Part shown: positions 18,440 to 38,000 of the stretch, one piece after another
How positions within the stretch are numbered: the first letter of the stretch is position 1
How the letters are laid out: every line of letters starts with the position of its first letter
From: an uncultured Methanosarcinales archaeon
GTDB taxonomy: Archaea; Nanobdellota; Nanobdellia; Woesearchaeales; GW2011-AR9
Length of the DNA: 64,000 nt
Assembly (NCBI GenBank): GCA_964434885.1
Contig: CAYSWQ010000003.1
Location: 6,882-70,881 of the forward strand
Reading direction: 5' to 3'
Program-made: the position numbers and the translations under genes
The notes under the pieces: model-generated
The model's input: the letters and a program-made list of their open reading frames with translations, nothing else
Told to the model about the DNA's origin: nothing
Database searches by the model: none

Positions 18440-18454
18440 TTTGATAAATCTTAA

Positions 18455-19267: not shown

Positions 19268-19592
19268 AATCTTTGTTAAGTTCGGTTACTTTTGCATCAG
19301 TAGTAGTAGTACTTGGACAACCAGGGAACTCTTTGTTTTTAGTTGTTCCTGCATCACAAGGACATTTATCAAATAAGTCACCAATATTATCATTGTCATA
19401 ATCTCCTAATGCACTAATTTTTTCTCCTAGGTTTCCATAAGCACCTTCTCCGCCTTTCTGGAACCAAATGATTACTAAAGTAACAACAACAACTGCTAAG
19501 ATTGCTAGAACCAATTGTTGCCAAGTCATGGCTTTTTTATTGAATAACATTTTATCACCATTAATTTTTTTATTTTCCTGCAATATCTCCAC
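19239..19592 (-). CDS. Pilin-like protein with thrombospondin-type-3-like Ca-binding repeat
   Basis: MLFNKKAMTWQQLVLAILAVVVVTLVII. DYDNDNIGDLFDKCPCD. Confidence 0.4.
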   Translation of the reverse strand: MEILQENKKINGDKMLFNKKAMTWQQLVLAILAVVVVTLVIIWFQKGGEGAYGNLGEKISALGDYDNDNIGDLFDKCPCDAGTTKNKEFPGCPSTTTTDAKVTELNKDCDTKKSKQT

Positions 19593-20484: not shown

Positions 20485-20597
20485 CTATCTAACCTCTTAA
20501 TTATAATTAAAGAAGTAGCATATAAAAAACTTGTGTTTGATTTTAATAATTGCATAATCTTTAAATATTATTATTTATCAGTAGTTATTGATTTAAG

Positions 20598-22882: not shown

Positions 22883-23025
22883 TATCTATTTCCTCCAAAC
22901 TTAGAAAGCAAGCCTTGAAGAAAACTACCTAAATCATTATACCAAATAACTACTAAGATTAACAAAACAATTGCTAAAATCATTAAAACTAAAATCCACA
23001 TTTCCATTCCTTTTTTTCCTTTCAT
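22882..23025 (-). CDS. 47-aa single-TM peptide (hand-translated; not in ORF track)
   Basis: MKGKKGMEMWILVLMILAIVLLILVVIWYNDLGSFLQGLLSKFGGNR. TAATG overlap with the downstream gene and ATGA overlap with the upstream one. Confidence 0.3.
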   Translation of the reverse strand: MKGKKGMEMWILVLMILAIVLLILVVIWYNDLGSFLQGLLSKFGGNR

Positions 23026-23168
23026 GGCAATAACCTTCCTCTTAGTTTAAAGATGTAGAATAACAAAGCCAAACCCATAATCACAACCAAAATAATTACC
23101 ACGAGGTAAGTGGTGCTAATGTGTTGGGCCTTGTGGTTGTTAAAAAGAGACTTTAATTGAGTAAACAT
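23022..23168 (-). CDS. 48-aa single-TM peptide (hand-translated; not in ORF track)
   Basis: MFTQLKSLFNNHKAQHISTTYLVVIILVVIMGLALLFYIFKLRGRLLP. Coupled to both neighbours. Confidence 0.3.
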   Translation of the reverse strand: MFTQLKSLFNNHKAQHISTTYLVVIILVVIMGLALLFYIFKLRGRLLP

Positions 23169-23171
23169 TTT

Positions 23172-23513
23172 TCATGTTTTTTTCTTAATGCCCAGACAGC
23201 AAACTGACTTTTTGGTTGTGTCGGTAGAAGGTTTACAAGTGAAAGCAGACGAAAAACGGCATTCGGAAAAACCTACCCCTGCTCCACTACCACAAGCAGC
23301 ACTACATGCTTTACTGGCAGTGTTTGTTCCTTGGGTTGTGCAAAAACCACCTTTACTTTCACAATTAAGTAATCCAGATTCTAAAGTGCCAGTTTTCCCA
23401 GTGAAAATTAAAAGCAAGATTACTAAAACCACCAAAGCAATAATGGCAGTAATAACAATCCAAAAAGTGTTACCTTGGGCTTTCTTCATTTTATTTCCAC
23501 GCGCAAGTAGCAC
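23172..23513 (-). CDS. Archaeal type IV pilin-like protein with Cys-rich C-terminus
   Basis: MKKAQ|GNTFWIVITAIIALVVLVILLLIF. C-terminus CESKGGFCTTQG...CSAACGSG...CCLG. Confidence 0.45.
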   Translation of the reverse strand: MLLARGNKMKKAQGNTFWIVITAIIALVVLVILLLIFTGKTGTLESGLLNCESKGGFCTTQGTNTASKACSAACGSGAGVGFSECRFSSAFTCKPSTDTTKKSVCCLGIKKKT

Positions 23514-23847
23514 TTAAACAATTAGTTTGAGTGGAATAAGCCTTACATCTCGATATTTCTTGTTTAAGTGTGCTAGCAGCAGTATCTTTAGCTGTGTCTG
23601 TCTTTGCTGCACCCATGGCTGTTCTAAACGCATTTTCTTTAGATGTGGTTGGATGACAACTCCCATAATTTATTTTTAATTTAATTAATTCAGCATCACC
23701 AGCTTGACTTACACCAGTCTTAAAAATTCCAATTCTACCTGTAAAAATCATTACTAAAAGCACCAAAACAATTAAAGCGATAGCCGCCACAATTATTACA
23801 TTTAAAGAAAGACCTTGTCCTTTTTTATTAAATCTCATCATCTTCAC
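23491..23847 (-). CDS. Archaeal type IV pilin-like protein
   Basis: MRFNKKGQ|GLSLNVIIVAAIALIVLVLLVMIF. Confidence 0.45.
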   Translation of the reverse strand: MKMMRFNKKGQGLSLNVIIVAAIALIVLVLLVMIFTGRIGIFKTGVSQAGDAELIKLKINYGSCHPTTSKENAFRTAMGAAKTDTAKDTAASTLKQEISRCKAYSTQTNCLSATCAWK

Positions 23848-23988
23848 CTCAATACAAATATATCTTTCTAAAAAAGAATTAATCTATATAAATCTTACCT
23901 TTCGTTTAAGTTTATTTAAGAGAAAGAAGGTAAAAATATATTTAATACTTGTTGTCTAATTTTTTAAACTATGTTTTTAATATTGCTA

Positions 23989-24531
23989 TTAATCACACAA
24001 TTTAAGAATGCTGATTACTTGTCCAGCGTTAGTGGGGAGAGGAAATGCGCCAGAAGAATCTGTGTCTTTCTTGCGACAACCGCGCCCACCTTCGTCTATT
24101 AAATAAATTAATTCAATTTCGTTTTGGTTTTGTAATAAGTAAGATTTAAATTCATATCTTTTGTTGAGTTTTCCTTTTCCAAGAGTTTTATTTAACAAAG
24201 CCCCAATAGTTTTGTTTAAAAAATCACAAGAATGTAAATTATTACATTGATATTCGGAATTTGTGTTTTTGTATAACGCACAATCTTCTAATAACTCATT
24301 TTGAATAAACAAAGGTTCTTTAATGAAATTTCCATAATAATCTTGGTGTTCACAAAGGGCACTGGTTTTCATTAATGCCCCCATCGCACTAGATGCTAAA
24401 AACTCTCGGGCAATTACTTTTTTAGTAGTATCTTCAACTAAAGAAAATTTAGCCATAAACAAAATTCCAAGAGTAGCCAAAATAACAATAATTACTAAGC
24501 CAATTAATTCTATTTGTCCTTTGGAATTCAT
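23989..24531 (-). CDS. Archaeal type IV pilin-like protein
   Basis: MNSKGQ|IELIGLVIIVILATLGILFMA. Confidence 0.45.
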   Translation of the reverse strand: MNSKGQIELIGLVIIVILATLGILFMAKFSLVEDTTKKVIAREFLASSAMGALMKTSALCEHQDYYGNFIKEPLFIQNELLEDCALYKNTNSEYQCNNLHSCDFLNKTIGALLNKTLGKGKLNKRYEFKSYLLQNQNEIELIYLIDEGGRGCRKKDTDSSGAFPLPTNAGQVISILKLCD

Positions 24532-25058
24532 GAAAAAACCTCCACAGTTAACATTCCAAATTTATATTCTCCTTGTTTTTCTTTGCCTTTGACAGAATCT
24601 TTTAAAGTTAATAAGAAATGGGTTGATTCTTTTTGTTTGCTACCAACCAAGGTACCATTAGCTAATTTTACTTTTTTTGGTTTATTATATAATACCCAGC
24701 TCTCATTCCCAGGATAAATTTCTGAAACAGTAATTTTAGTGAATGGAAATAAATCAAAATAATAGTCTCCAAAATTGTTTTTAAATGTTTTTTGTGCTTG
24801 TTTAACTTTCAGAAGATCTAAACAATAGAGTTCTGGTTCTGCTTCTCCACGACTACAAATTAATTCTGGGAGAAAAATAGTTTTAGAAGTTATCTCGACT
24901 GCTTTTTTGCCCATTTTTTCGGCTTGTTTCTCTTGAAAAGCCACTTCACTATATTTAGTGTAAAAAATAATTCCAAAAAGAATTAAGACAAAGAAAATAA
25001 ACATAACTCCAATTGTTTCCATCATCCTCATTTGAGCTTTTTTTGTCTTGTATTTCAT
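24528..25058 (-). CDS. Archaeal type IV pilin-like protein
   Basis: MKYKTKKAQ|MRMMETIGVMFIFFVLILFGIIF. ATGA coupling. Confidence 0.45.
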   Translation of the reverse strand: MKYKTKKAQMRMMETIGVMFIFFVLILFGIIFYTKYSEVAFQEKQAEKMGKKAVEITSKTIFLPELICSRGEAEPELYCLDLLKVKQAQKTFKNNFGDYYFDLFPFTKITVSEIYPGNESWVLYNKPKKVKLANGTLVGSKQKESTHFLLTLKDSVKGKEKQGEYKFGMLTVEVFS

Positions 25059-25083
25059 TTTAGTATTTTAGTTTAAGGTTTAG

Positions 25084-26235
25084 TTAATACAATTGGATAC
25101 AACTTTTTGATTGTAATTCTTTGTTTAATCTTTTCAACTCTTGGGCTGGTTTTAAAACATCTGAACAAGTGGAATAACCACTAACAATACAAGTTGAGGT
25201 GGCACCTTTAATTCTTTGTAATATATTTTGTATGTTGGTGGTTTTCTGTTTGTGTAAAATTAGTTGGCATTCATTTTTATTCTCGGCTGTTGGTTTTTGA
25301 TAATAACTCAAAATCTCTTTTAATTTTCCTCCCACTGAACCAGTGGTCCCACCATAAATTTCATTTAAATATTGCATTCTACGAAAAACTTTCATCATAT
25401 TGCATTGATAGCTTTTCCCATTCTCAGAAAAAATAGCGGCGAATTTAGCAGAATCTGGTTGGTCTCCAAGAGAAATTATTTTAGTAGTATCAATTTTTTC
25501 CCAGAACCGACCTTTCTTTTGATAATAAGTTGCAGTAATCCCTCCAACAAAACTAACAGCAGTAACTTGGGAATCTGCTAGTTTGATTAGTGGAGTGGGA
25601 ACTAATCCTTTATCTTGAATATATGTTCCAACTAAATCAACAATTCTTATTTGGTTAGTTTTTCCAGGAACTAATGTAGTTAAATCTTTAACAAATTCAA
25701 CATTGAAAAAATTTTGAGAAGTTTTCTTTTCTGATTTAATGGCTTTTTCTAATCTATTCCAAAAAGGGCTGGAACTACCCACTACAAAATATTTGTTATT
25801 ACTTGAACTAACAATTAATAAATCCATTATTTTATATGGGAAGTGATACGGTAAAGACCACAACAACAATTTAGTAGTTTGAATATTTTTAGGAGCAAAA
25901 ATAGGTTGTAATTTGGTTGATTTGGAGTTTCTTCCTTTAATTCCAAAGTTAGAAATTCCTTCTTCACATTTGAATTCAAAAACATAATTGGAGAGACCGC
26001 TTGTTTTAATGGAACTCATTGTCTTTTCAGAAACAGAAGCCCCGATTAAGATTGATTCTAAAACATCAACAACATCTCTTTGGAGATCTTCTTCAGCAGC
26101 AGATTTTTGTTTAACAACAATCCCGACAAAAAACATTAAAATTACTGCCCCAGCAATTAAAATATAAACCCAATTAAAAGCAACTTGAACTTGAGCAGAT
26201 TTAGATAACTGAAAAAGATTTTGTTTTGATGACAT
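25084..26235 (-). CDS. Pilin-like/membrane-anchored protein (383 aa)
   Basis: MSSKQNLFQLSKSAQVQVAFNWVYILIAGAVILMFFVGIVV N-terminus. Confidence 0.35.
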   Translation of the reverse strand: MSSKQNLFQLSKSAQVQVAFNWVYILIAGAVILMFFVGIVVKQKSAAEEDLQRDVVDVLESILIGASVSEKTMSSIKTSGLSNYVFEFKCEEGISNFGIKGRNSKSTKLQPIFAPKNIQTTKLLLWSLPYHFPYKIMDLLIVSSSNNKYFVVGSSSPFWNRLEKAIKSEKKTSQNFFNVEFVKDLTTLVPGKTNQIRIVDLVGTYIQDKGLVPTPLIKLADSQVTAVSFVGGITATYYQKKGRFWEKIDTTKIISLGDQPDSAKFAAIFSENGKSYQCNMMKVFRRMQYLNEIYGGTTGSVGGKLKEILSYYQKPTAENKNECQLILHKQKTTNIQNILQRIKGATSTCIVSGYSTCSDVLKPAQELKRLNKELQSKSCIQLY

Positions 26236-26236
26236 T

Positions 26237-26749
26237 TTAAGTGTCTGCAGACAATTCTGTTCTATCTCCTTTTCCTTCTAAGACTAGTTTAAATCTACCT
26301 TTGTTAATAGGTAGGCAAAGATAATCATTAGTCATACTAATCTCATATACTTTAAGGGGAATTTCCGATGCAGGTTTTAAAAATACATTTCGATCTGATT
26401 TGCTCCATCCTCCTCCTTGAGCGGCAGCAGTTTTCCAAGTATCGCAAGCAAAAACACCTAGTTTAGAGAGACAATCTGCAGGTGGTTTTTTACTCAAATC
26501 AATAAAACACACTTGAGAATATTTAGGAGGGAGAGTAAATGTTTTAATTCTAACTGAACCATATTCTGTGTAGATTTTCTTAACATTGGATTCTAGGTCA
26601 GTTTTAAATCTTGTAAATTCAACTTTTTCACCTTTATCTAAAAAATCATTTACTGCCTTGAAACCAAAAATGACAATCAAAGCGAAGGTAATTGCGGCCA
26701 CCATAAAGATAAAGACTTGACCAATAGCCATGGCTTTTTTATTTTTCAT
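26237..26749 (-). CDS. Archaeal type IV pilin-like protein
   Basis: MKNKKAMAIGQVFIFMVAAITFALIVIFG. Start overlaps the giant gene's stop. Confidence 0.45.
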   Translation of the reverse strand: MKNKKAMAIGQVFIFMVAAITFALIVIFGFKAVNDFLDKGEKVEFTRFKTDLESNVKKIYTEYGSVRIKTFTLPPKYSQVCFIDLSKKPPADCLSKLGVFACDTWKTAAAQGGGWSKSDRNVFLKPASEIPLKVYEISMTNDYLCLPINKGRFKLVLEGKGDRTELSADT

Positions 26750-29700
26750 TTTTTCCTCTCATCACTAATTTTTTTTAATTTATCGAAGATGCTTTTGGCT
26801 TCTCCTTTAGAAACTACTTCGTGAACAGGTTTGTCTTGAGTTTTGGTAGCAATGTTTTCTAATTTTGCAAAAACACCTTTTTCTCCGTGTTTTAAACCAG
26901 GCCGAATAGTTTCTTTCTTTTCAACATATTTTTGAGCTAATTGACCCACTCTTTCTTGGTGAGGAATTTCTTTATTTAATAAAGGATTAAGGTGAGGGAT
27001 TGTTTTAGATTCTTGGCTAAATTCTCCAAAAAGCGATTTTCTAACTTGGGTTTTTTCTTTTTTGGCTCTAACTCTTCGTAAACCAAAAATCTTGTGTTTC
27101 CAAGAAGTGATGGTTGGTTTTGGTTTTTGACTAACTGAAGGGGGGGCTGGTCCTCTAAATTTAGCAGGCATTGGTTTTCCTGGACCATGAACAGATTCAT
27201 AATAAAAGACCAAGTAACCACTTCCTCCAAGAACCAAGATAATTCCTAAGGATAAAATTATCCATGCTAACAAACTAGATTTGGAGGTTTTGGTTGTAGT
27301 TTTAGTTGTGGTTGGTTTGGTTGTAGTGGTTGGTTTTTTAGTAATAGTTTTCTTTGGAGCATCAGCATAACAAGGATCATAATATCCAGAATATTCTTCG
27401 TAATTCGAATAATTATCGGTATCATAATCTTCTTTGTCATCTGTTATTCCATCTCCATCAGAATCTTTTTTGAGATAGTCTAAATAACATTTAGTACTTT
27501 GGTCATTATATAATTTTTCCCAAGAATCAGGTAAACCATCTCCATCAGTATCTGCAGAAGATTGGGAAGTTGTGGTTTGTCCAGATGCACATCCAGTTGA
27601 ATCGACATATTTGCCGGCAGTAGTACTGGCACATTTATCACAACTATCTGTAACTCCATCTCCATCAGAATCTTTGAAAGTTATTTTTGTTGTTCTAGTT
27701 TTGTTGTTACCTTTTGGATCAGCAACATAATAACAAATCCATTCAGTTCGTTTTAATGAAATCTTTTGACCATTATAATTAAATGCGGGTTTACAACTAC
27801 CTTCAACAGAACTTTGATAATAATCAAACTTGTCGCAACTTGTTTCGTCAGTACATTTCATCTCTACTTCTACTGCACTACAAGTATCATTAGTTTGAAA
27901 AGAGACAACTGGAGCAGTGACATCTTTATTACATTCAGAATATTTACTATCAACTGCTAAGAAACCATCACTCTCTACTAAAGTTCCAGTGTTTCCGGCT
28001 TTATCAGTTGCTTTTACTTTAATGAAATACTTTCCATTTTTAGTTAATTTGTATTTTATTTTGAAAGGTGAAGTAGCAGCCAAAGAGCCTTTAGAAACTA
28101 TTTTTTTAACAGAGCTATTAGTAACTTCATATAATTCATAATAATAACTAGAGAGGTTTCCTTCATCAGTATAAACATATATCTTTGGAGTATCACTCAA
28201 ACCACAAGAATATTTTTGATCATTGACACTAGTTATTTTTGGTGGGGTTTGATCAACAATAAATTCTATTTTGCCTTCTCTTTTTTCACCCGCAATATTA
28301 CATTTTATTAGATAATAATATTTGCCTTCTGTTAATTTTCCTAAAGAGTGTTGGTGTTTAGTAGAACCAGTAGTTTTGAAAGTAGTGGTATTATATTTAC
28401 AAATTGCTCTCTTGTTAGTTGTTGCTCCTAATTTAACTGCTGTTCCAGAAACATATCCTTTGGGAGAAGTAGAGAGAATATTTCCTTGAACAGAATAATC
28501 TACAGTAAAAGTGATATTTTTTGGTTCAGAAACATTACCTGCTCCATTTTTACATTGAGTAACAAGATTGTATGTTTTTTTAGTCCCACCAAATGAAATT
28601 CTGAACCAAGTGGTGTGTTTGGTATTTAATGTTTTATTATTGACTCCTGGAAAAGGATATATCATGGAGGAATAAGTTGCCTTACCATCATTGTATTTAC
28701 AAATAGTTTTATCGTCGGTCTCAATAAATAAATTAGTGCCTACTCCTTCATTAACAGAAGCTGGTTGAGCATAGGCTTTTTTAATTACTGGTTTGGTGGG
28801 ATCATATTCTAAATTAATTTTCTGAACTGGCCCTAATTTATTACCTAAATCTTTGCACTTAACAAAAATTGTTTTAATTCCTCCTTTTTTGTTGTAGGTA
28901 GAAATAACCTTGCCGGGGAATTTACTTGTTCCATCATTATAATAATAATTTCCTCCAGATTTTGTTTTCTTTAGTTTTTGATGAGAAGGCACTTTTTCAT
29001 AATTAAAAATAGGGTTGAAATCAAAACGACAACTGCTAGTTGGTACTTTGGTGGAAATAACTAAACTGAAATTTGGGTGATAACTAATACCCCATTTTTC
29101 TCCATTATAAGAATAAGGAGTGGGACTGACTAAATTGATTCCAAACCCTTCAATAGATACTTGACCACAATTAGGAGGGGTTTCTTTGTTTCCTCCAGTA
29201 TCTACAGAATAATAACAAACTTGAGTAGATTTATTTAAACTAACTGGTTTAGTGAATTCTTTATATCCGGAAGAAAACTGAGAAGCACAACCAGAACCCA
29301 AACAATAAAAGGTTTTGTTGTAACCAAAACCAGAAACAGAATATTTGAAACTACTAATTTTGGCAGAATCTACAAAAATAGATTTCCAACCTTTAGTAGA
29401 TTGAATTACGGTTCTATTTCCTTCAGTTAAAACTATGTTAGTTTTTGGGCCCGAAATATCAATTTGAAAAATAAAAAAATCTTCTTTAATTTTTTGAGTT
29501 AAAAGATCTTTACAAATGGCTTTGTATGTTCCACTATAATTTCCTGTTTTTAAGGAAAGAGATTTAGTTTTATGTTTTTTATTTGTGGTATCAGCAGTAA
29601 AGTCTGCTACTTTTAAATTTTTGGCGTCGTATAAGCTACAAGTTGCTTTGGTAGCTGTCTTTAATTGGAAATAAGGGGAAGTGGTAGTTATTGGTCCTTT

Positions 29701-32700
29701 TGGATAAATGATATCTATGGCTGGTTCTAAATCAAAAACAAATTGTTTATTTTGAGTATTTTTATTATTGTAATCATCTATACAATTAATAGTTAAGTTG
29801 TAAATTATCCCCGGTAAACTTTTGAAGATGGCTTGTTTATTTTTCTCTTGACGAGTTATTTTTTTGGTTTGTAATGTGCTTTTAGGAAGTAAAGGATCTA
29901 ATTTAAATTCACAACCCATTGGTTCATTGATGCCAGTTAAATAAATTGTTAAATCTGTTTTATCGATTGTAGTAGTATAATTACTTTTGATTTGAAATTG
30001 AGGTTTTTCAGTGTCAATAAAAATAAATTCTTCGCGAACAGTTTCTTGATTAAAATATCTATCTTTAGAATAATATCTGAGGCGATAGGTTTCCCCTTTA
30101 ATGATTTTTCCTTGTAGCGCTTTTACAATATCGGCGGAAGCAATTTCAGTATTTAATTTACCGGGGTATTTTGTCTCTTGGAAAGAAGTACATTTTGGTG
30201 TATTGGATTTAGAATCAGCAAGACAATAACCCAATACCCCTAAGCGGCTTTCATTGTCTGTGCCTTGGAAAGTTAAATTTGTTTGTGATAAAGAAACAAT
30301 TTTTACTTTTCCGGCTGGAAGGATACTTGTAGTTGGAGCCTGATTATCTATTTGACAAAGAGTTGTTTCTCCTGCCGTAAACTGAGAACAATCATCTTTG
30401 CCATCACCATCTCCATCTTTGATGCATCCATGTTCGTCAAACTTTTTTGCTTGACCTTTCCAAACACATTTGCCCCAACCACATTGATCTTTGGAAGAAG
30501 TGATGGTTCCAAGTGAATTTTTTAAAGGTTGATCTCCAACACATTCAGTTTGAGTACTATAAGAATAACAATTGTGAGTTTTGTCTGGTTGAGTACCACA
30601 AGATTTACATTCAGTTAAGTCGTAATAAGAGAAACACCTTCCTAATTGAGAACAAACGGAAGAAGTACAATAATAATTTTCAAAAAGAGAGGAAGAGGCA
30701 CTACAACTTTTACATTGGTCATCTTTTTTATAGTCTTTTTCAACACAATAACCATGGCCAGTTTCTTCCAAGATTGGTAAAGAAAGAATATTTTCAAAAT
30801 TTTTATAGATATTTAACCCCGTGCCAGCTGAAACCCAATTACAAGTAGTACCTAAACAATTATTGATATCACAAGCATCTTTGCTTTGATAATCAAAACA
30901 AGATTTGATGTTAGCACAGCTATCACATTTGTTGACTACGGATTGAGTGTAATCATAATAACAGTAGTTTGTAGGTTCTCCTGATTTAATAGTAGTTGAT
31001 TTAACTCCATAACAAGTTTGACGATTGTAATATAAACCAAAAGGAGTAGCTGCTTGTGGAATCAAACTACATTTTCCAGCATCTTTACATGTGGCAGTAG
31101 TAGAAGTTATTTCAGCACAATAATAAGCACTACCTTTTGTATCTAAAACAGAACAATCTTTAGAAAGGGTTTTTTTATTTTGATTATTACAAGACCACAT
31201 TTTCTTTCTATCTTTTAAATCGTTAGAACAAAAAGTGGCCCATCCTGCTTTTTCTGAATATTGATTCTCACAGATTTGATCTCCCATTGTTACTGAGATT
31301 TTAACAGGGGTAGAAAACCTAGTTTTAACATCAGTATAGACTGCAGTGATTTGATAACTATATTTGCCACCCCATTCTACTTGATCATCTAAATAAGAGA
31401 ACATGGCAGGAGAAGCAGAAAATTGAGCAACTTGTTTGCCATTTTTAAACTTAACAATTTGATAGGCACTAACTTCAGGACAAGGTTTAGTCCATTGTAA
31501 GGAAATTTTCTTAACTCCTTTAATATGATTAGCAGTAAACTTTTCTACACTTTTAGATTGATTTTTTCCACCATAACTACATTGACCAATATATTTAGTA
31601 AGAAGAAGGTCTTGGGTTTTTGTTTCTCCAGATTGTAAATTTATTTTTAATTTCTTTTTCAATTCATAATCCGAATACGTAGCAGAGATTTCTTGCGATC
31701 CAGTAGATAATTCTAATTGGTAATAACCCAAAGGAGAATATTGGGAGTAACTTTTGAATATTCCATTGACAGAAATACTAGCACCATATATTTTTTCATC
31801 TCCAATATTATCTCCATCTTTATCTAACCAAACATAACCTTTAATCCCTTGTAATTTGGTTGTTTCTAAGAGAAAATTTTTCTTGTCGTCTTGTGTTTTG
31901 AGAGTATAACTTTGGTCTTTGGTAGTGTAACCATATTTAGCAAGAGTAAAAATATATTTTTCTTTTGGGACTAGATTTTTAGCAGTGTAAAAACCATTTT
32001 TATCAGATAGAACTGAACCTGATGTAGAGGTGCTTTTCCAAGAAATTAGAACTCTATTAAGTGGTTTGCCATCTTTGTCTTTAACATAACCAGATAGTTG
32101 GGCAGTACCTACTAATTTTTTTAGGGTGAAGTTTAATTCTGTAGTTTGGTTGGTTTTGAGTGTGATTGGTTGATTGATTGTAATATATCCGGATTTTATT
32201 AGTTTGATTAAATGAGTTCCAGGATCATTTTGGAAAGAATAAATTCCAGTTGAAGATGTTGTTTGTGTTTTTCCTTTTAATTCAATTTTAACGCCAGAGA
32301 GAGGGTTTTTGTTTTGGTCGAGTATGGTCCCTTTTAAAGTAACTTGGTTTGTCTTTACTCCACAAGATTGAGAACATTTTGTTGAATCCATTGTGGGGTC
32401 TGTTAGTTTGGTAATCCAAGATTCAAAAGTGGTTAAACCTTCTTTTTTAGCAATATTAAGACAATTCCACTTTGTACCTCCACTTTGTTGATAATAACAA
32501 GTGTTAGAAACTTTACAACACCCAGCAGAACACCAATCATTATAATTTGTTTCAGTTACTTCTTGCCAGCCAGTTTCTTTACCTTTATCTTGTTTTTCAG
32601 CTTCTAACTGACATTCCCCTTGGGTCATGGTTTGACAGTTTACACTACAAGTGATTGATTTACAGGTGGGAATTCCGGAACAATCTTTTCCTGGGTTGAA

Positions 32701-32895
32701 AAAAGAAGTGTATTGTTTAGTTTCTCCAAGGGCTTTGATTTTGTAATCTGCTAGTGCTTTTTCTTCGGTGATTTTCTGACAATAGAGGCTTTTTGAGGAT
32801 TTGGGATAATAATAACATCCATCTAAAGCAAAAGCAGAACTAATTAAAACTAGGAAAATTATAATACTAATTACAGCTACACCTCTTTTTTTCAT
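26746..32895 (-). CDS. Giant (2049 aa) type-I membrane surface protein / putative adhesin. Domain order: signal peptide, N-terminal Cys-rich domain, carboxypeptidase-regulatory-like and other beta-rich domains, thrombospondin-type-3-like Ca-binding repeats, Thr/Lys-rich stalk, TM helix, about 150-aa cytoplasmic tail
   Basis: MKKRGVAVISIIIFLVLISSAFA signal. CSAGCCK and WNCLNIAKKEGLTTF in the N-domain. GVKIELKGKTQTTSSTGIYSF (CarbopepD_reg-like). DSDGDGVTDSCDKC / DTDGDGLPDSW / DSDGDGITDD. TTTKPTTTKTTTKTSK stalk. LLAWIILSLGIILVLGGSGYLVFYY TM. Confidence 0.7.
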   Translation of the reverse strand: MKKRGVAVISIIIFLVLISSAFALDGCYYYPKSSKSLYCQKITEEKALADYKIKALGETKQYTSFFNPGKDCSGIPTCKSITCSVNCQTMTQGECQLEAEKQDKGKETGWQEVTETNYNDWCSAGCCKVSNTCYYQQSGGTKWNCLNIAKKEGLTTFESWITKLTDPTMDSTKCSQSCGVKTNQVTLKGTILDQNKNPLSGVKIELKGKTQTTSSTGIYSFQNDPGTHLIKLIKSGYITINQPITLKTNQTTELNFTLKKLVGTAQLSGYVKDKDGKPLNRVLISWKSTSTSGSVLSDKNGFYTAKNLVPKEKYIFTLAKYGYTTKDQSYTLKTQDDKKNFLLETTKLQGIKGYVWLDKDGDNIGDEKIYGASISVNGIFKSYSQYSPLGYYQLELSTGSQEISATYSDYELKKKLKINLQSGETKTQDLLLTKYIGQCSYGGKNQSKSVEKFTANHIKGVKKISLQWTKPCPEVSAYQIVKFKNGKQVAQFSASPAMFSYLDDQVEWGGKYSYQITAVYTDVKTRFSTPVKISVTMGDQICENQYSEKAGWATFCSNDLKDRKKMWSCNNQNKKTLSKDCSVLDTKGSAYYCAEITSTTATCKDAGKCSLIPQAATPFGLYYNRQTCYGVKSTTIKSGEPTNYCYYDYTQSVVNKCDSCANIKSCFDYQSKDACDINNCLGTTCNWVSAGTGLNIYKNFENILSLPILEETGHGYCVEKDYKKDDQCKSCSASSSLFENYYCTSSVCSQLGRCFSYYDLTECKSCGTQPDKTHNCYSYSTQTECVGDQPLKNSLGTITSSKDQCGWGKCVWKGQAKKFDEHGCIKDGDGDGKDDCSQFTAGETTLCQIDNQAPTTSILPAGKVKIVSLSQTNLTFQGTDNESRLGVLGYCLADSKSNTPKCTSFQETKYPGKLNTEIASADIVKALQGKIIKGETYRLRYYSKDRYFNQETVREEFIFIDTEKPQFQIKSNYTTTIDKTDLTIYLTGINEPMGCEFKLDPLLPKSTLQTKKITRQEKNKQAIFKSLPGIIYNLTINCIDDYNNKNTQNKQFVFDLEPAIDIIYPKGPITTTSPYFQLKTATKATCSLYDAKNLKVADFTADTTNKKHKTKSLSLKTGNYSGTYKAICKDLLTQKIKEDFFIFQIDISGPKTNIVLTEGNRTVIQSTKGWKSIFVDSAKISSFKYSVSGFGYNKTFYCLGSGCASQFSSGYKEFTKPVSLNKSTQVCYYSVDTGGNKETPPNCGQVSIEGFGINLVSPTPYSYNGEKWGISYHPNFSLVISTKVPTSSCRFDFNPIFNYEKVPSHQKLKKTKSGGNYYYNDGTSKFPGKVISTYNKKGGIKTIFVKCKDLGNKLGPVQKINLEYDPTKPVIKKAYAQPASVNEGVGTNLFIETDDKTICKYNDGKATYSSMIYPFPGVNNKTLNTKHTTWFRISFGGTKKTYNLVTQCKNGAGNVSEPKNITFTVDYSVQGNILSTSPKGYVSGTAVKLGATTNKRAICKYNTTTFKTTGSTKHQHSLGKLTEGKYYYLIKCNIAGEKREGKIEFIVDQTPPKITSVNDQKYSCGLSDTPKIYVYTDEGNLSSYYYELYEVTNSSVKKIVSKGSLAATSPFKIKYKLTKNGKYFIKVKATDKAGNTGTLVESDGFLAVDSKYSECNKDVTAPVVSFQTNDTCSAVEVEMKCTDETSCDKFDYYQSSVEGSCKPAFNYNGQKISLKRTEWICYYVADPKGNNKTRTTKITFKDSDGDGVTDSCDKCASTTAGKYVDSTGCASGQTTTSQSSADTDGDGLPDSWEKLYNDQSTKCYLDYLKKDSDGDGITDDKEDYDTDNYSNYEEYSGYYDPCYADAPKKTITKKPTTTTKPTTTKTTTKTSKSSLLAWIILSLGIILVLGGSGYLVFYYESVHGPGKPMPAKFRGPAPPSVSQKPKPTITSWKHKIFGLRRVRAKKEKTQVRKSLFGEFSQESKTIPHLNPLLNKEIPHQERVGQLAQKYVEKKETIRPGLKHGEKGVFAKLENIATKTQDKPVHEVVSKGEAKSIFDKLKKISDERKK

Positions 32896-33020
32896 TTTTT
32901 TCGTTTTAAAAGCTTGATTATAACTTCTTCATAACTCTGCCTGGGATGAATTTTTAATTTATTGAGCGCTTTGACTGTCTCTTTGGAAAGTTTGATAGTA
33001 GTGATTTGTTTTTGTTTCAT
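32892..33020 (-). CDS. 42-aa ribbon-helix-helix (CopG/MetJ-like) DNA-binding protein, translationally coupled (ATGA) to the giant surface protein gene
   Basis: Hand translation MKQKQITTIKLSKETVKALNKLKIHPRQSYEEVIIKLLKRKK. Beta-strand (TTIKLSKET) followed by two helices in RHH register. Not in ORF track. Confidence 0.45.
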   Translation of the reverse strand: MKQKQITTIKLSKETVKALNKLKIHPRQSYEEVIIKLLKRKK

Positions 33021-33042
33021 CTTATTTTAAGCTTATTTCTTA

Positions 33043-33054
33043 TGGTATACCTAA
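33043..33054. promoter_or_regulatory. Palindromic box tGGTATACCtaa (copy 1), about 24 bp upstream of the RHH gene start
   Basis: GGTATACC is a perfect 8-bp palindrome. An identical 12-mer recurs 90 bp further upstream. Confidence 0.35.
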
Positions 33055-33132
33055 GTATCTTTTTGTATATTTATGTATCTTTTATTATATTTTGGTGTCG
33101 TTTGATATGCTTTATTATAATAAAGTATTCTG

Positions 33133-33144
33133 TGGTATACCTAA
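33133..33144. promoter_or_regulatory. Palindromic box tGGTATACCtaa (copy 2)
   Basis: Identical 12-mer to 33043-33054. Both lie in the 300-bp intergenic region ahead of the RHH/giant-protein operon. Confidence 0.35.
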
Positions 33145-33194
33145 AGAATTTAAAAAGGTTTTGGTTGGAGAAAGGACGAGAAAAAATGAAAAAA

Positions 33195-34403
33195 TTACTT
33201 ACGATCAACGATTTCTTTTAAGCGGTGGAAAATGGCTTGGGCTTCTTTTTCACCAATTTTTTTGATTTCTTCGGTTTTTAATTTAGCAATATTTTTTTCA
33301 ACTTCCTGAAAGAAATCTCTCTCTTTTTGGGATTTTTTCCAGTGGGTTTTCTTTAATTCATGGATATGGGCTACTTTTTCTAGTAAATCAACATATGTTT
33401 TTTTGTGGTGGGTTGGTTCACCAAAAATATCAAACAATTCTTTTTTTTTCTTTTCAATGTGATGTTTTCTTTTAATGTGGTGTTCTTCGGGTTTTGAATA
33501 TGAAGGGATCTTAAAAAGTGGTTTTTTAGTAAGGGTTGGTTTTTTTATTTTGGGAATTGGTTGTTTGTTTCTTTGATGAGCTATATATAAGAAGGCAGCA
33601 ATTAGGATTAACACTAATAAGAACCAAAACCACAATCTAGAAGAATTTTTTTTGGGTGTTTGTGTTGAAGTTGATTTAATAGTTGTTTGAGTTTTTGGTT
33701 TTGTTGTGGTTTGTGAAGAAGTTGTTGTTTTTGAAGTAGATGTTAGTTGTGTTATAGTGCTTGCTTGAGAAGATGTTGTTTGGGTAGCTAAACCAGTAGT
33801 TGTTGGTGTTTTTTGAGTTGAAGAAGTAGTTGGTTGTTGAGCAGTTGAAGTTGTTGTTTTTGGTGTTGTGATTGATGAAGTAGGTTTTGCTGTAGTTGAT
33901 GGGTAAGTTGTTGCTTGAGTGGTTGTGCTTTGAGTACATAAAGAACTACAAGCTGTTTTTGTTGTTTTAGAATCAAAATTAAATGTAGTAATACCTTTGT
34001 TTTTAGCAGCGATTTCACAAGACCATTGATTTTTTTGATAAGTACATGATTTTTGATTATTATAAGTGAATTGACAACAACCTGGACTACACCAAGAATA
34101 TTCTTTGCCGCTGGGAATTGGACCACCAAGACATTTACCTTGGTATTGATAATCACAGGTGCTTTTACAATAAATTTCTTGACATTGAGGAAAGTAAATA
34201 GAATTTTCACATTTTTGATTAGAGAAAAAAGATTCTTTAAAATTACAAGTACTATAAGTAGAACATTCATCTTGAGCATCTGTTTTTTCTAAGTCATAAC
34301 AATATAATGCGCTGCTTTTGAAAGTGAAACAACCTTCTTCAGCTAAAATAAAAGGAATTGAGATTAGGAAAAGAATACCAATTATTAAACCTCTTTGATT
34401 CAT
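33195..34403 (-). CDS. Surface protein paralogous to the giant protein: signal peptide, same N-terminal Cys-rich domain, mucin-like Thr/Ser/Gln stalk, TM helix, same conserved cytoplasmic tail
   Basis: N-domain CSPGCCQ and WSCEIAAKNKGITTF match CSAGCCK and WNCLNIAKKEGLTTF of the giant. About 100-aa T/S/Q-rich stalk. TM RLWFWFLLVLILIAAFLYIAH. C-terminus EKEAQAIFHRLKEIVDRK against EAKSIFDKLKKISDERKK in the giant. Confidence 0.6.
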   Translation of the reverse strand: MNQRGLIIGILFLISIPFILAEEGCFTFKSSALYCYDLEKTDAQDECSTYSTCNFKESFFSNQKCENSIYFPQCQEIYCKSTCDYQYQGKCLGGPIPSGKEYSWCSPGCCQFTYNNQKSCTYQKNQWSCEIAAKNKGITTFNFDSKTTKTACSSLCTQSTTTQATTYPSTTAKPTSSITTPKTTTSTAQQPTTSSTQKTPTTTGLATQTTSSQASTITQLTSTSKTTTSSQTTTKPKTQTTIKSTSTQTPKKNSSRLWFWFLLVLILIAAFLYIAHQRNKQPIPKIKKPTLTKKPLFKIPSYSKPEEHHIKRKHHIEKKKKELFDIFGEPTHHKKTYVDLLEKVAHIHELKKTHWKKSQKERDFFQEVEKNIAKLKTEEIKKIGEKEAQAIFHRLKEIVDRK

Positions 34404-35097: not shown

Positions 35098-38000
35098 ATG
35101 AATATAAAAAGAGGGATGTGGTTTATCGTATTAATAGTTCTAGTTATTTTTTTGAGTGGAATTGTTTTTGGAGCTACTTGTAAAACAGGAGAAACAGATT
35201 GTAGTGGAACTTGTGTAGATATCAAAACAAGTTCAAGTAATTGTGGTGCTTGTGGTACTGCTTGTAAAACAGGAGAGTCTTGTTCTAGTGGAAAATGTGT
35301 AACAAGTAGTAGTGGAAATACCTGTGATTCAGATAGTGAATGTGGAAAAGGAAGTAATTGTGTGGCAGGAGTGTGTAAAGCTAAAAGTGCTGGAACTACT
35401 AATTCAGGAAAGTTGCCTGTAAATACAGATCGAACTCAGGTATTGGGAGCAAATGTTGAGGCCCCAGCTGCATTATCTGCGTGTGATTATGAGAATGAAG
35501 GAGATCATTTGGATTGTTTTAGAGACGCATCTCCTGCTGGTTCTTATTTATATGGAGGTAGTGGATATGTTGGGATAGATGATTCTGATAGAGCAGGAAT
35601 TGTATTGAAACCAAAAGGAATTGATGCAGGAGATTGTACATTGGCAAGTGTAATGCTTAATAAAAAACAACCAGGAGCAAAAGGGTGTAAAATTGTAATA
35701 GTTGAAGATGATTCAGCAGAGGTTGTGGATGATGATGATGGGGCAATGGGAGAAGTTAAAAAAGGGTTTGTTTTAAGTTATGATTATGATCGTGTAGTAT
35801 CATCACAAAAAAAATATGATGAATTTATTGAAATATATGGTCAATTTGAATTCACTAGGGTGCTTTGTGATGCTGATGATGCGAGAGATGCTCTTGAAGA
35901 AGCATATTTTCAAACAGAATTTCCATATATTTGTGCGGATGATGTTTATTGGCATAAATGTGAGACCAAAGGAAAGATAACTTGGGCCAATGATTATTTA
36001 TATAATTGTACTGACGACGAAAATCTTAATTTATATTGGGATATTAGAGGTATTGATAAAGATCACGATGGTTATACTGATGATAAAGATTGTGCTGATG
36101 ATCCTCATGGAGAAGGAATGCAATTAGTTGGTTGTCCAACAGATTTAAGTAAAGAAGTATGTGATCCAGTAAAACATTCTCGTTGTGCAATTTGTATTAA
36201 TCCAGGAAGACCAGAAACGTGTGGAGATGGATTAAATAATGATTGTGATTTAGGGAAAAAATCATTAAAACAATTAGATGGTCTTACTAAAGATAATTGT
36301 CATTTAAATAGATATGCTTGTGAAAAGAAACAAGGGATTGATAAAGATGGAATAGAATATGGTCCTACTCACACCAATATTTTTGGAGAAACATTATCTT
36401 GGAAGGAAGTAAAAAATTCTAAAGGGAAAGATGGATATTGTTGTGGTTTTGAAGGGGCCAAAGATTTAGGGAAAATTGCTACTGGAAAAGAAGGTAATTT
36501 TATTTGTTTGAATCGGAACAAACAACTAACTGGAAGTGCCACTGGAAAAATTCCTGGATGGGATACTAAAATTTGTGGAGATACTTGGTGTTGGATTTGG
36601 GCTACTGGTGCTGCTGCTTTTCAAATAACAACAGTTAAAAAACCAGGAGAGCAGCCATATGATATTGTTTCCAATAATAAAGAATGGCATGAATGTAAAG
36701 CCAACTTAAAAGATCAGAAATTACCTTTTACTCTTTCAAAAAGCAAAACATTAGATTATGAGTGGTTAGAAAAAATTACTAATAGATTTAGGTGTTATCA
36801 AGAAGGAAATCATTGGTCTTGGACAGAATGCTATGGGAAAAATGATAAACCCCAAAATAAGAATGCTAAAGGAAGAGTAGCAGGAGATGGTGTTTATTCT
36901 CTTTTTATTGATGTTAAAGGAGAAAAAATAGGTTCAACAATTGAATTAAAATCAAGTGATTATTCTTTATTTTATGGAAAAAATTATGCTTATGATTTTA
37001 GTGGATATGATAATTTGGAATTTATGTTAAGGTTTGTAGATAAAAGTGGAAAACCAGTTGGAAAAGATAAATTAACTTTGCCGGCGAATGTAAGGATGTT
37101 AATTTATGGACCAAAACAAGTAGATGAAAAAGGAAAAACTTCTGATTTATTATATCTAGATCAAAATGTTTTAGGTTATGTAATAAATGGTCCTCATTTT
37201 AGTGATCAAAATTGGATGCATGTAAAAGTTCCAATTCTCAACTTAAAAGGAGTTCAAAGTATTATTTTAAAAAGTGCTCGTGAACAAGACAAGATTGCAG
37301 TAAAAAATGTTTATTTGAGTAAAGGAAATTCTTCTTTAACTCCTTTATGTTCGGGTAAAGATACTAGAGATTATAACTCATGGATAAGTAATATTGATCA
37401 AGCTGATAAAACCAATCCCATTACAGGAGAAGAAATTTGTAAAGATCATTATGGTGCAAATTCTTGGTTAGGTAGTTATGGGAAAAAAGAAGTGGAAACA
37501 ATTACAGCTAGTTGTTGTGGAAATAGTCCAAAAGAATATTATGGAAAAAATTCGAAGAACAATTATGGTTGTTGGAATTCTCAATCAATTAAACCCGGAG
37601 CAACAATAATGAATACTAAATTTACTGTAATTTCTCAAGAAACACAAGTGGAAATGAATTATCCAGAGATTAGTTTTGATTATGTTTTGGAAGTAGAAAA
37701 CCCACTAAGTAACCAAGAAGTGCTTAGTGTATCTACAGAACCAAAAACAGATTGTGATAAAAGTAAAAAAGATAAGATTGCAATTTATAAAGGATATATT
37801 TACAAATGTAGTGGATTACAATGGAAAAGAACAGAAGATAGAATATTGGATTATAATTTACAATCCAAAAAAGTTGATGAAGATATAAAAAAATTAGCTC
37901 AAAAACAAACAAAAACAGATAAAATAAGTATTACTTCTGGACCAATTAAACTTTTGAATTGGAGTGGTGAAATTAAAAATGTGGTTCCTTTTATTAATAT

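What the first reader, a model, noticed from the sequence alone, without database searches (positions are those of the whole stretch)
32892..33194. Mini RHH regulator with twin GGTATACC palindromes, translationally coupled to the giant adhesin gene
A 42-aa ORF absent from the ORF track (MKQKQITTIKLSKETVKALNKLKIHPRQSYEEVIIKLLKRKK) has a beta-strand then two helices in CopG/MetJ ribbon-helix-helix register. Its TGA stop overlaps the ATG of the 2049-aa gene. The 300-bp leader upstream carries two identical 12-mers, tGGTATACCtaa (33043 and 33133), each containing a perfect 8-bp palindrome, spaced 90 bp apart. One overlaps the predicted TATA/BRE region of the RHH gene. This looks like an autoregulated switch controlling the whole surface-appendage operon.
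Basis: partly seen in the sequence, partly recalled or inferred. Interest (0 to 1): 0.6.

Follow-up and report, generated by a model that had tools for sequence, protein, structure and literature searches.

The report
Mini DNA-binding repressor heading giant-protein operon

Summary
A 42-aa ORF (32892-33020, minus strand) overlaps the 2049-aa gene by ATGA. Two tGGTATACCtaa 12-mers lie 90 bp apart, and they hold the only GTATAC sites in 64 kb.

The ORF is a real gene. It passes the Pfam DUF7557 threshold, has weaker RHH and VapB-antitoxin-like matches, and its AF2 model (pLDDT 91) shows an extended strand plus two helices. At least 958 relatives exist in Woese-/Pace-/Nanoarchaeota, and pN/pS is 0.18 with saturated synonymous sites.

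The two palindromes are the perfect end units of a ten-unit, 10-bp-period array (33043-33144; consensus TARGTATACYTA). It lies between a BRE/TATA element and the start codon. About 40 diverged genomes keep the same layout of TATA, then 1-10 GTATAC units, then ATG. Relatives with a different beta-strand lack the sites.

In the close relatives, the gene that follows overlaps the mini-gene and is large, most often about 2000 aa. Natural variants include single-chain double-RHH proteins and in-frame fusions of the RHH to the N-terminus of the large membrane protein.

Best reading: a CopG/Arc-type autorepressor of a surface-protein operon with pilin-like genes. This rests on comparative inference. 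Binding, repression and any "switch" behaviour are untested. It is a new variant of a known kind.

The parts
32892..33020 (-). Gene for a 42-aa minimal ribbon-helix-helix protein (Pfam DUF7557). Predicted layout: beta-strand around I6-S12 (ITTIKLS), helix A 13-22, loop KIHPRQS, helix B 30-41.
   Evidence: ORF. DUF7557 30.4 bits against a cutoff of 25; VAPB_antitox E 9e-4; RHH_1 E 0.019. All 58 first-round homologues hit DUF7557, 50 hit VAPB_antitox and 8 hit RHH_1. AF2 pLDDT 90.8 with an extended N-terminus and two helices. pN/pS 0.18 with pS about 0.78. The gene is called on 4 public contigs.
32892..32895 (-). ATGA stop/start overlap between the RHH gene and the 2049-aa gene. No Shine-Dalgarno-like sequence lies upstream, so termination-reinitiation coupling is inferred.
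   Evidence: Sequence. A 4-nt overlap is conserved in 11 distinct loci: L001, L005, L009, L010, L013, L015, L017, L020, L021, L022 and L051.
33043..33144 (-). Predicted operator: ten head-to-tail 10-bp units. In gene orientation they read GGTATACCAC AGAATACTTT ATTATAATAA AGCATATCAA ACGACACCAA AATATAATAA AAGATACATA AATATACAAA AAGATACTTA GGTATACCAT. Mismatches of each core to GTATAC are 0-1-2-2-3-2-2-1-2-0.
   Evidence: 10-bp periodicity z +4.5, +5.5 and +4.5 at shifts 10, 20 and 30. TRF period 10/20. Unit table. Consensus TARGTATACYTA from 45 strong sites. Homologous arrays of 1-10 units lie before the start codon in about 40 loci.
33147..33163 (-). Candidate archaeal promoter, in gene orientation CAAAACC-TTTTTAAATT (BRE-like plus TATA-like). 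It lies 6 nt upstream of the first operator core.
   Evidence: Read from the sequence. A matching element (aaaac..TTTTTAAA, TTTATATA or TTTAAATA) lies 8-22 nt upstream of the first unit in most homologous loci. Similar TATA elements precede other transcription units of the window. The transcription start site is not mapped.
33176..33194 (-). Two oligo-T runs (TTTTTTCATTTTTTC in gene orientation) directly after the stop of the upstream 402-aa gene. This is a likely archaeal terminator, so the RHH gene would start a new transcription unit.
   Evidence: Sequence. The terminator function is inferred from general knowledge of oligo-T termination in archaea.
26746..32895 (-). Gene for a 2049-aa surface protein. 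It has a Sec-type signal peptide (MKKRGVAVISIIIFLVLISSAFA), a Cys-rich N-domain, CarboxypepD_reg repeats, Big_13, a C-terminal TM helix and a cytoplasmic tail of about 150 aa.
   Evidence: Orthologues of 2016-2135 aa follow the mini-gene in L005, L009, L013, L017 and L051.
23989..26749 (-). Four tightly packed downstream genes (170, 383, 176 and 180 aa). Each has a short basic N-terminus followed by a hydrophobic segment (for example MNSKGQIELIGLVIIVIL), which looks pilin-like. They are probably the rest of the operon. A 141-nt gap with its own TATA element follows.
   Evidence: ORF spacing. Sequences. Upstream regions. The same gene order of about 170-190 aa then about 340-370 aa occurs in L005, L009 and L051. 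No Pfam hits.

Best explanation
The 42-aa ORF encodes a minimal ribbon-helix-helix (RHH) DNA-binding protein of the uncharacterised family DUF7557. It is the first gene of an operon of about 9 kb in a DPANN (Woesearchaeota-like) archaeon. The operon order is RHH, then a 2049-aa surface protein, then four small pilin-like membrane proteins.

Proposed mechanism, all inferred:
1. The protein dimerises through its N-terminal strand (ITTIKLS) into a two-stranded ribbon. The ribbon reads the palindromic core GTATAC.
2. Dimers load side by side at 10-bp spacing, one helical turn apart, so they line one face of the DNA. They occupy an array of ten sites that begins 6 nt downstream of the TATA element and runs towards the start codon. 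The two perfect end sites (GGTATACC) act as strong anchors, and the eight degenerate inner sites fill cooperatively.
3. Occupancy of the region between the TATA element and the transcription start, and of the initially transcribed region, blocks RNA polymerase recruitment or escape. The operon therefore represses itself.
4. The ATGA overlap makes the repressor and the giant protein from the same message in a coupled way, which gives negative feedback on output.

Shown here: the gene is real and under purifying selection. It has an RHH-like fold. The array is periodic. The motif, its position and the gene order are conserved.

Inferred, not shown: dimerisation, binding, cooperativity, repression, and the coupling mechanism.
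For: Fold and family:
- DUF7557 is above the Pfam cutoff, with sub-threshold VAPB_antitox and RHH_1 hits in 50 and 8 of 58 members.
- The AF2 model has pLDDT 90.8 with an extended strand and two helices.
- Natural tandem-duplicated relatives (83-105 aa) make up most of the top profile hits. One folds as strand-helix-helix, linker, strand-helix-helix, with both strands in a sheet (pTM 0.68).
- The best PDB fold matches of that model are F-plasmid relaxosome chains and the archaeal-virus regulator AvtR, although with weak E-values.

Real gene:
- 58 relatives in the first search and at least 958 in the profile search.
- pN/pS is 0.18 and synonymous sites are saturated.

Operator:
- GTATAC occurs only twice in 64 kb, both times here.
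- The 10-bp periodicity has z of +4 to +7 in the window and in 4 other loci.
- In about 40 non-redundant loci, units of GTATAC(C/T) 10 bp apart lie between a TATA element and the start codon.
- In 461 kb of these loci, 32 of 37 motif pairs fall within 200 bp upstream of the called RHH start. Two more do so once mis-called starts are corrected.
- Because synonymous sites are saturated, this non-coding conservation is not simply recent ancestry.
- Relatives that keep the HPRQSY helix but have a different beta-strand (L039, L178) lack GTATAC. All TTIK-bearing relatives except L038 have it.

Geometry:
- In 2-unit loci such as L016, the operator exactly fills the space between the TATA element and a leaderless start. 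Archaeal repressors classically bind in this position.

Coupling and operon:
- An overlap with a large secreted protein gene recurs in at least 11 loci.

RNA alternative:
- The leader has no RNA structure signal (z -0.25).
Against: - No binding, footprint, start-site or expression data exist. Everything functional is comparative inference.
- RHH_1 itself is below its Pfam cutoff (15.4 against 20.5).
- Sequence searches of solved structures found nothing meaningful, and Foldseek E-values are not significant.
- With the distal TATA element, most of the ten-unit array would be transcribed as a leader of about 115 nt. This is unusual beside the short leaders of other genes in the window. A second promoter inside the array cannot be excluded.
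- Eight of the ten units are degenerate, one of them with 3 of 6 core mismatches.
- A metagenome-wide scan for the pair motif alone returned mostly unrelated contigs (1 of 80 followed by an RHH gene). The motif is therefore only diagnostic within these archaea.
- In-frame fusions of the RHH to the giant membrane protein hint at a role beyond a free cytoplasmic repressor.
- L038 keeps the TTIK strand but has no GTATAC upstream.
Confidence: 0.72

Rival explanations
1. The protein binds the array but activates or architecturally organises the promoter instead of repressing it. Ten phased dimers could bend or wrap about 100 bp of DNA and help TBP/TFB loading, or could set the level of a downstream internal promoter.
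For: In giant-gene loci the array is long, at 5-10 units, and far exceeds what is needed to occlude a start site. The units themselves contain TATA-like sequence, such as AAATATAC and AATATAATAA. CopG-type RHH proteins bound in phase are known to bend DNA (general knowledge).
Against: In the many 2-3-unit loci the sites sit between the TATA element and the start codon, on top of the expected start site. That is a repressor geometry. Small RHH proteins without extra domains are usually repressors (general knowledge of Arc, Mnt, CopG, MetJ and omega).
Confidence: 0.12
2. The small protein works mainly through the giant protein rather than through DNA. It could be a cytoplasmic partner or escort, or a detachable N-terminal module of the secreted protein. 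On this view the GTATAC array is bound by something else, or is simply promoter architecture.
For: At least five independent in-frame fusions join the RHH, through a basic linker, to a hydrophobic anchor and a large extracellular protein: L012, L018, P0161, P0162 and P0163, at 42-71% identity. The stop/start overlap is strictly conserved. The downstream partner is nearly always a signal-peptide protein.
Against: The fused genes still carry GGTATACC pairs directly before their start codons. The beta-strand co-occurs with GTATAC, and both are lost together in L039 and L178. Distant family members with no giant gene downstream keep the operator. The most conserved residues are those expected to face DNA: the TTIK strand and the RQS helix cap.
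Confidence: 0.1
3. It is the antitoxin of a toxin-antitoxin pair, as some databases label relatives ('predicted CopG family antitoxin').
For: There are sub-threshold matches to Pfam VAPB_antitox (E 9e-4; 50 of 58 members). JGI uses this name for several relatives.
Against: No toxin gene is adjacent. The next gene is a 2049-aa secreted protein with CarboxypepD_reg and Ig-like domains, and the upstream gene is its 402-aa paralogue. The same is true in all syntenic loci. The 42-aa protein ends right after helix B, so it has no toxin-binding tail.
Confidence: 0.03
4. It is a chance ORF with chance palindromes in AT-rich intergenic DNA.
For: The window has 31% G+C, and short ORFs are plentiful.
Against: There are at least 958 conserved relatives with invariant TTIK and HPRQ.Y.E motifs. 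pN/pS is 0.18. The motif and its periodicity are conserved across genomes.
Confidence: 0.01

Closest known systems
CopG (RepA) of plasmid pMV158, and the Arc/Mnt repressors of phage P22
   Same: These are about 45-53-aa RHH proteins made of little more than the fold. Dimers read a (pseudo)palindrome with a beta-ribbon. Several dimers bind in phase on one DNA face, about one helical turn apart, and repress the promoter of their own operon. This comparison rests on general knowledge. Here the RHH_1 (CopG family) match is only sub-threshold.
   Different: This protein is archaeal and chromosomal. The array has up to ten sites rather than 2-4. The promoter is of the TATA/BRE type. The regulated genes encode surface proteins rather than replication or lysogeny functions. 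There is no significant sequence match to solved RHH structures.
Omega repressor (pSM19035) and ParG (TP228): RHH proteins that bind arrays of short tandem repeats
   Same: Both are RHH dimers that polymerise cooperatively on 7-12 contiguous short repeats placed in front of the operons they repress (general knowledge).
   Different: Their repeat units are 7 bp or 4+4 bp, not 10 bp. They have flexible N-terminal tails that talk to ParA-type ATPases, and they double as centromere binders. No ParA gene lies near this locus.
AvtR (Acidianus filamentous virus 6) and TraY (F plasmid): natural tandem-RHH single chains
   Same: Many DUF7557 relatives are tandem double-RHH chains. The AF2 model of one has AvtR (4hv0) and F-relaxosome chains as its top fold matches. 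I infer, but did not verify, that those relaxosome chains are TraY.
   Different: The fold-match E-values are weak (0.1-1). The protein in the window is the single-repeat form. Sequence identity is 12-17%.
CdrS, the small archaeal RHH co-transcribed with ftsZ2
   Same: It is a single-domain RHH protein of about 55 aa in archaea, encoded directly upstream of the gene it regulates and co-transcribed with it (PMC7439475).
   Different: CdrS belongs to RHH_1 (PF01402), is linked to cell division, and was reported absent from DPANN (PMC7439475). The family here is DUF7557, is DPANN-centred, and is linked to secreted giant proteins.
Archaeal VapB-like 'CopG family antitoxins' (Pfam PF02697)
   Same: This is the closest named sequence family after DUF7557, and it is the source of the database label.
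   Different: No adjacent toxin gene and no C-terminal toxin-binding extension.

Membership tests
Pfam DUF7557 (PF24434) | Score at or above the curated gathering threshold of the family HMM | tested here: met
   30.4 bits against a cutoff of 25. All 58 first-round homologues match.
Ribbon-helix-helix (MetJ/Arc/CopG) superfamily | Strand, helix, helix topology in about 40-45 residues | tested here: met
   The AF2 model of the 42-mer has pLDDT 90.8, with residues 1-12 extended, H13-22 and H30-41. The tandem relative has E5-11/H12-21/H29-37 and E55-61/H62-71/H79-94.
Ribbon-helix-helix (MetJ/Arc/CopG) superfamily | Two chains (or two repeats) pair their N-terminal strands into an antiparallel ribbon | tested here: inconclusive
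   In the single-chain tandem relative, DSSP assigns both strands to a sheet (pTM 0.68). I infer that they pair with each other, because no other strands exist in the model. No dimer prediction of the 42-mer could be run.
Ribbon-helix-helix (MetJ/Arc/CopG) superfamily | Significant sequence or fold match to established RHH families or structures | tested here: inconclusive
   RHH_1 scores 15.4 bits against a cutoff of 20.5, and VAPB_antitox 20.4 against 27.9. There are no PDB sequence hits. The Foldseek top hits are RHH-like (the SeqA N-domain; AvtR; relaxosome chains) but have E >= 0.1.
Ribbon-helix-helix (MetJ/Arc/CopG) superfamily | Sequence-specific binding to palindromic or tandemly repeated operator DNA | not testable with these tools
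   Only comparative support is available. GTATAC units 10 bp apart are conserved before the gene in about 40 loci, and they are absent where the beta-strand differs.
Type II toxin-antitoxin antitoxin (VapB/CopG type) | A cognate toxin gene (PIN/VapC, RelE, etc.) adjacent in the same operon | tested here: not met
   The neighbours are a 2049-aa secreted protein and a 402-aa paralogue, with no toxin domains. The same holds in syntenic loci.
Type II toxin-antitoxin antitoxin (VapB/CopG type) | A C-terminal extension that binds the toxin | tested here: not met
   The protein ends at residue 42, immediately after helix B.
CdrS-type archaeal RHH | RHH_1 family member encoded upstream of ftsZ2 | tested here: not met
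   No ftsZ gene is adjacent. RHH_1 is sub-threshold. CdrS was reported absent from DPANN (PMC7439475).
ParG/omega-type centromere-binding RHH | Encoded next to a ParA/Walker-type partition ATPase | tested here: not met
   Pfam scans of 28 window proteins found no ParA-type domain in any of them.
Archaeal type IV pilus-like locus (as the regulated target) | Pilin-like proteins with class III signal peptides, plus a PilB/T2SSE ATPase and a PilC/T2SSF platform protein | tested here: inconclusive
   At least 10 downstream genes start with KKAQ or KKGQ followed by a hydrophobic segment. I judged this by eye and ran no predictor. No T2SSE or T2SSF gene was found in the window. In relative L010 the operon runs into T2SSE and T2SSF genes.

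The most novel reading that the evidence does not exclude
The repressor may be physically tied to export of the protein it regulates.

In one clade the RHH is fused in frame, through a short basic linker ending in KKG, to the hydrophobic signal/anchor segment of the large surface protein. There it would be either a membrane-tethered transcription factor or a cytoplasmic 'leader' that is set free when the signal segment is processed. The amount of free repressor would then report how much giant protein has been inserted or processed. This would be an export-coupled feedback loop built from a 40-residue DNA-binding module.

In the window the two parts are separate genes held together by the ATGA overlap. 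The junction CGA-AAA-AAA-TGA contains an A_AAA_AAA slippery heptamer. A -1 shift there would read straight into the giant ORF and recreate the fusion.
Probability: 0.15. Interest if true: 0.8.

Novelty: new variant of a known kind. Interest (0 to 1): 0.55.

Why it matters
- **A function for a domain of unknown function.** DUF7557 has at least 958 sequence clusters. The analysis gives it a concrete, testable role, a DNA motif (TARGTATACYTA at 10-bp spacing) and a target class (giant secreted proteins and pilin-like genes).
- **A handle on DPANN surface genes.** DPANN archaea are mostly uncultivated episymbionts, and their huge surface proteins are thought to mediate host contact. How these genes are controlled is essentially unknown. 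This is a simple cis/trans pair conserved across Woese-, Pace- and Nanoarchaeota.
- **Easy to test.** The protein is short enough to synthesise chemically, so binding can be tested without culturing the organism.
- **A compact example of RHH evolution.** The family contains single, tandem, paired-gene and membrane-fused versions.
- **A possible new mechanism.** If the fusions are functional, they would be a rare case of an RHH tethered to, or released from, a secreted protein.

Tried and rejected
1. **Solved structures.** Sequence searches with the 42-mer and with the family profile gave only chance hits.
3. **Reverse test.** I scanned metagenome contigs for GGTATACCNNNGTATACC. Most hits were unrelated, higher-GC contigs, many from one sample. 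The motif pair alone is not diagnostic outside these archaea, and the test says nothing about a regulon.
4. **Regulon inside the window.** None was found. GTATAC occurs nowhere else in the 64 kb.
5. **RNA-level function of the leader.** There is no structure signal (z -0.25) and no Rfam hit.
6. **Bacterial promoter/terminator scan.** It is not applicable to an archaeon and was uninformative.
7. **Toxin-antitoxin reading.** Rejected on gene context.
8. **Mobile or viral origin.** Only 6 distant relatives occur in viral contigs. The window carries core chromosomal genes (Cdc6, PolD, MCM).
9. **Programmed -1 frameshifting as a general feature.** The slippery heptamer is not conserved at the junctions of L005, L009, L010 or L013.
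10. **Literature.** No paper mentions DUF7557. No RHH regulator is described in surveys of archaeal type IV pili loci or of DPANN dark matter.
Full report
**1. The observation**

Its TGA overlaps the ATG of the 2049-aa ORF (26746..32895) as ATGA. TGGTATACCTAA occurs at 33043 and 33133, 90 bp apart.

GGTATACC occurs nowhere else in the 64 kb. Shuffles expect 0.29, and 4 of 100 reach two copies. The 6-mer GTATAC also occurs only at these two places, against 6.2 expected.

Three details need correcting:
- The non-coding stretch is 174 bp (33021-33194), not 300 bp, because a 402-aa gene ends at 33195.
- JGI gene callers did call the ORF on the source contig.
- The palindromes are part of a larger repeat, described in section 4.

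**2. Where the window comes from**

The window matches JGI metagenome contig Ga0115649_1000524, which is 109 kb. It encodes RNase P p30, TFIIE, Hjc, Cdc6, PolD, MCM and a RadA-like protein. It is therefore an archaeal chromosome with 31% G+C. Relatives of the small gene come from MAGs labelled Woesearchaeota, Pacearchaeota and Nanoarchaeota. The host is most likely a DPANN archaeon, but this is an inference.

**3. The small ORF is a real RHH-type gene**

Family and sequence:
- It scores 30.4 bits on Pfam DUF7557, whose cutoff is 25. Weaker hits are VAPB_antitox (E 9e-4) and RHH_1/CopG (E 0.019).
- All 58 first-round homologues hit DUF7557, 50 hit VAPB_antitox and 8 hit RHH_1.
- A profile search finds at least 958 clusters.
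- The invariant residues are T7 T8 I9, K23, H25 P26 R27 Q28, Y30, E32 and V33. These fall on the N-terminal strand and on the loop and N-cap of helix B, which are the DNA-facing parts of an RHH (general knowledge).

Selection:
- Across 13 orthologues, pS is about 0.78 (saturated) and pN is about 0.14, giving pN/pS of 0.18.

Fold:
- AF2 gives pLDDT 90.8, with residues 1-12 extended and helices at 13-22 and 30-41.
- Many relatives are natural tandem duplications of 83-105 aa. One folds as strand-helix-helix, linker, strand-helix-helix, with both strands in a sheet (pTM 0.68). That is a single-chain RHH dimer.
- Its top PDB fold matches are F-plasmid relaxosome chains and the tandem-RHH archaeal virus regulator AvtR, at weak E-values of 0.1-1. 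I infer that the relaxosome chains are TraY, a natural tandem RHH.
- The monomer model matches the RHH-like SeqA N-domain at E of about 1.
- Sequence searches of the PDB found nothing.

**4. The operator is a ten-unit array, not two palindromes**

Read in gene orientation, the region from the distal to the proximal palindrome is ten head-to-tail 10-bp units. Their cores differ from GTATAC by 0,1,2,2,3,2,2,1,2,0 mismatches.

Self-similarity is significant at shifts of 10, 20 and 30 (z +4.5, +5.5 and +4.5) and absent at 9 and 11. TRF also reports period 10/20. Strong sites pooled from all loci give the 12-bp palindromic consensus TA(G/A)GTATAC(C/T)TA.

**5. Comparative evidence**

I fetched 5 loci through exact-protein look-ups, 39 genome loci and 6 viral loci.

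- Essentially every relative that keeps the TTIK strand has GTATAC(C/T) units, usually two or more and 10 bp apart, directly before its start codon. They are preceded 8-22 nt upstream by a BRE/TATA-like element such as aaaac-TTTTTAAA, TTTATATA or TTTAAATA.
- Array length is 5-10 units in loci with genes of about 2000 aa, 2-4 units in tandem-RHH loci and 1-3 units in a distant, longer subfamily.
- In 461 kb of non-redundant loci, 32 of 37 motif pairs lie within 200 bp upstream of the called RHH start. Two more do so once mis-called starts in L018 and L036 are corrected.
- Synonymous sites are saturated, so this non-coding conservation implies constraint.
- Two relatives keep the HPRQSY helix but have other beta-strands: L039 (SIKIKEDT) and L178 (RVVQLNES). 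Both lack GTATAC. This is what one expects if the ribbon reads the motif.
- The one exception is L038, which has TTIK but no upstream GTATAC.

**6. Promoter geometry**

In the window the best BRE/TATA candidate is CAAAACC-TTTTTAAATT (33147-33163), 6 nt upstream of unit 1. Other transcription units in the window have similar TATA elements about 27-40 nt before their start codons.

In 2-unit loci such as L016, the operator exactly fills the gap between the TATA element and a leaderless start. That is the classical position of an archaeal repressor (general knowledge).

In the window, the same promoter would give a leader of about 115 nt containing units 2-10. Alternatively, a TATA-like unit such as ATAAATATAC could act as an internal promoter. 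I cannot decide between these. The leader shows no RNA structure (z -0.25). Two oligo-T runs after the upstream gene's stop (33176-33194) suggest that the RHH gene starts a new transcription unit.

**7. Coupling and the operon**

- A 4-nt ATGA overlap with the next gene is found in 11 distinct loci, and larger overlaps occur in others.
- The next gene is 2016-2135 aa where it is complete (L005, L009, L013, L017, L051). It has a signal peptide and a GCYYYP- or GCC-type Cys-rich start.
- In the window it carries CarboxypepD_reg repeats, Big_13, a C-terminal TM helix and a cytoplasmic tail.
- Four tightly packed genes follow, of 170, 383, 176 and 180 aa. Further genes down to about 17 kb also have a basic N-terminus followed by a hydrophobic segment, which looks pilin-like by eye.
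- In L010 the operon continues into T2SSE and T2SSF genes. None is found in the window.
- No Shine-Dalgarno-like sequence precedes the giant ORF in the window, so reinitiation coupling is plausible but inferred.

**8. Fusions**

In L012 and L018 the RHH is in frame with the large protein. The order is RHH, a basic linker ending in KKG, a hydrophobic segment, then a large extracellular region. A search with that N-terminus found three more such proteins (P0161-P0163, 42-71% identical), all truncated by short contigs. The fused genes keep GGTATACC pairs before their start codons. L016, from the same clade, instead has two separate mini-genes followed by the large gene.

These fusions argue for a tight functional link and raise the export-coupled reading given as the novel case. 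In the window, the junction CGA AAA AAA TGA is an A_AAA_AAA heptamer whose -1 frame is the giant ORF. The heptamer is not conserved elsewhere, so I treat frameshifting as speculation.

**9. Comparison with known systems**

- It works like CopG/Arc/Mnt: minimal RHH autorepressors bound in phase.
- It also resembles omega and ParG, which are RHH proteins on tandem-repeat arrays.
- Its tandem relatives resemble AvtR and TraY.
- CdrS is the closest archaeal small RHH encoded upstream of its target. It belongs to RHH_1, is linked to ftsZ2 and was reported absent from DPANN.
- The 'CopG family antitoxin' label fails on gene context.
- No paper mentions DUF7557. Surveys of archaeal type IV pili loci and of DPANN dark matter do not describe such a regulator.

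**10. Verdict**

The operator is an array of ten phased sites, and the TATA element is adjacent to it rather than overlapped. Function remains inferred. It is a new variant of a known kind. Interest is 0.55.

Noticed in passing
window 33195-34403 (-): The 402-aa gene just upstream is a short paralogue of the giant protein. It shares the Cys-rich N-domain (31% identity over 183 aa, E 5e-12) and the C-terminal TM helix plus cytoplasmic tail (E 5e-4), joined by a Thr/Ser-rich stalk. It has no GTATAC sites of its own.
   Followed up: partly
window 32889-32900 (-): The gene junction CGA-AAA-AAA-TGA is an A_AAA_AAA slippery heptamer. A -1 shift there would read AAA-AAA-ATG-AAA and so fuse the RHH to the full giant protein, which mimics the natural fusions in L012 and L018. 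The heptamer is not conserved at the junctions of L005, L009, L010 or L013.
   Followed up: partly
window 17077-26749 (-): A run of at least 10 genes begins with a short basic N-terminus (KKAQ, KKGQ or KKAM) followed by a hydrophobic segment. By eye these look like class III (prepilin-type) signal peptides. None has a Pfam hit, and no pilus ATPase or platform gene is in the window.
   Followed up: partly
L034-L049, about 60-130 nt upstream of the RHH-like gene: The distant, longer subfamily (63-110 aa, with the C-terminal extension ILNxCKxNPExA) shares a conserved non-coding block, aaatttagttaaa ... tttataaactttatggtgaYaac. The block sits between a divergent gene and the GTATAC pair. Its nature is unknown.
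   Followed up: no
L037 8210 and L038 3343: In two distant relatives a GTATAC pair sits at the 3' end of the RHH gene rather than before it (or as well as before it). It may be an operator for the next gene.
   Followed up: no
L053, L058-L061, L068, L072, L086, L091, L102, L112, L121, L126 (sample Ga0126342): A perfectly palindromic GGTATACCNNGGTATACC pair recurs on many unrelated contigs (about 40-46% G+C) from one metagenome. None has an RHH gene next to it. It looks like a different repeated element.
   Followed up: no
window 35098-40437 (+): A second giant Cys-rich secreted protein (1779 aa, weak Stig1 hit) is encoded divergently, beyond the RNase P p30 gene. It has an ordinary TATA element and no mini-RHH gene or GTATAC sites.
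   Followed up: no
L016 900-1300: One relative carries two separate mini-RHH genes in a row before the large gene. Its clade-mates carry the RHH fused to the large protein, and other clades carry a tandem RHH-RHH single chain. The family therefore contains all four arrangements.
   Followed up: partly
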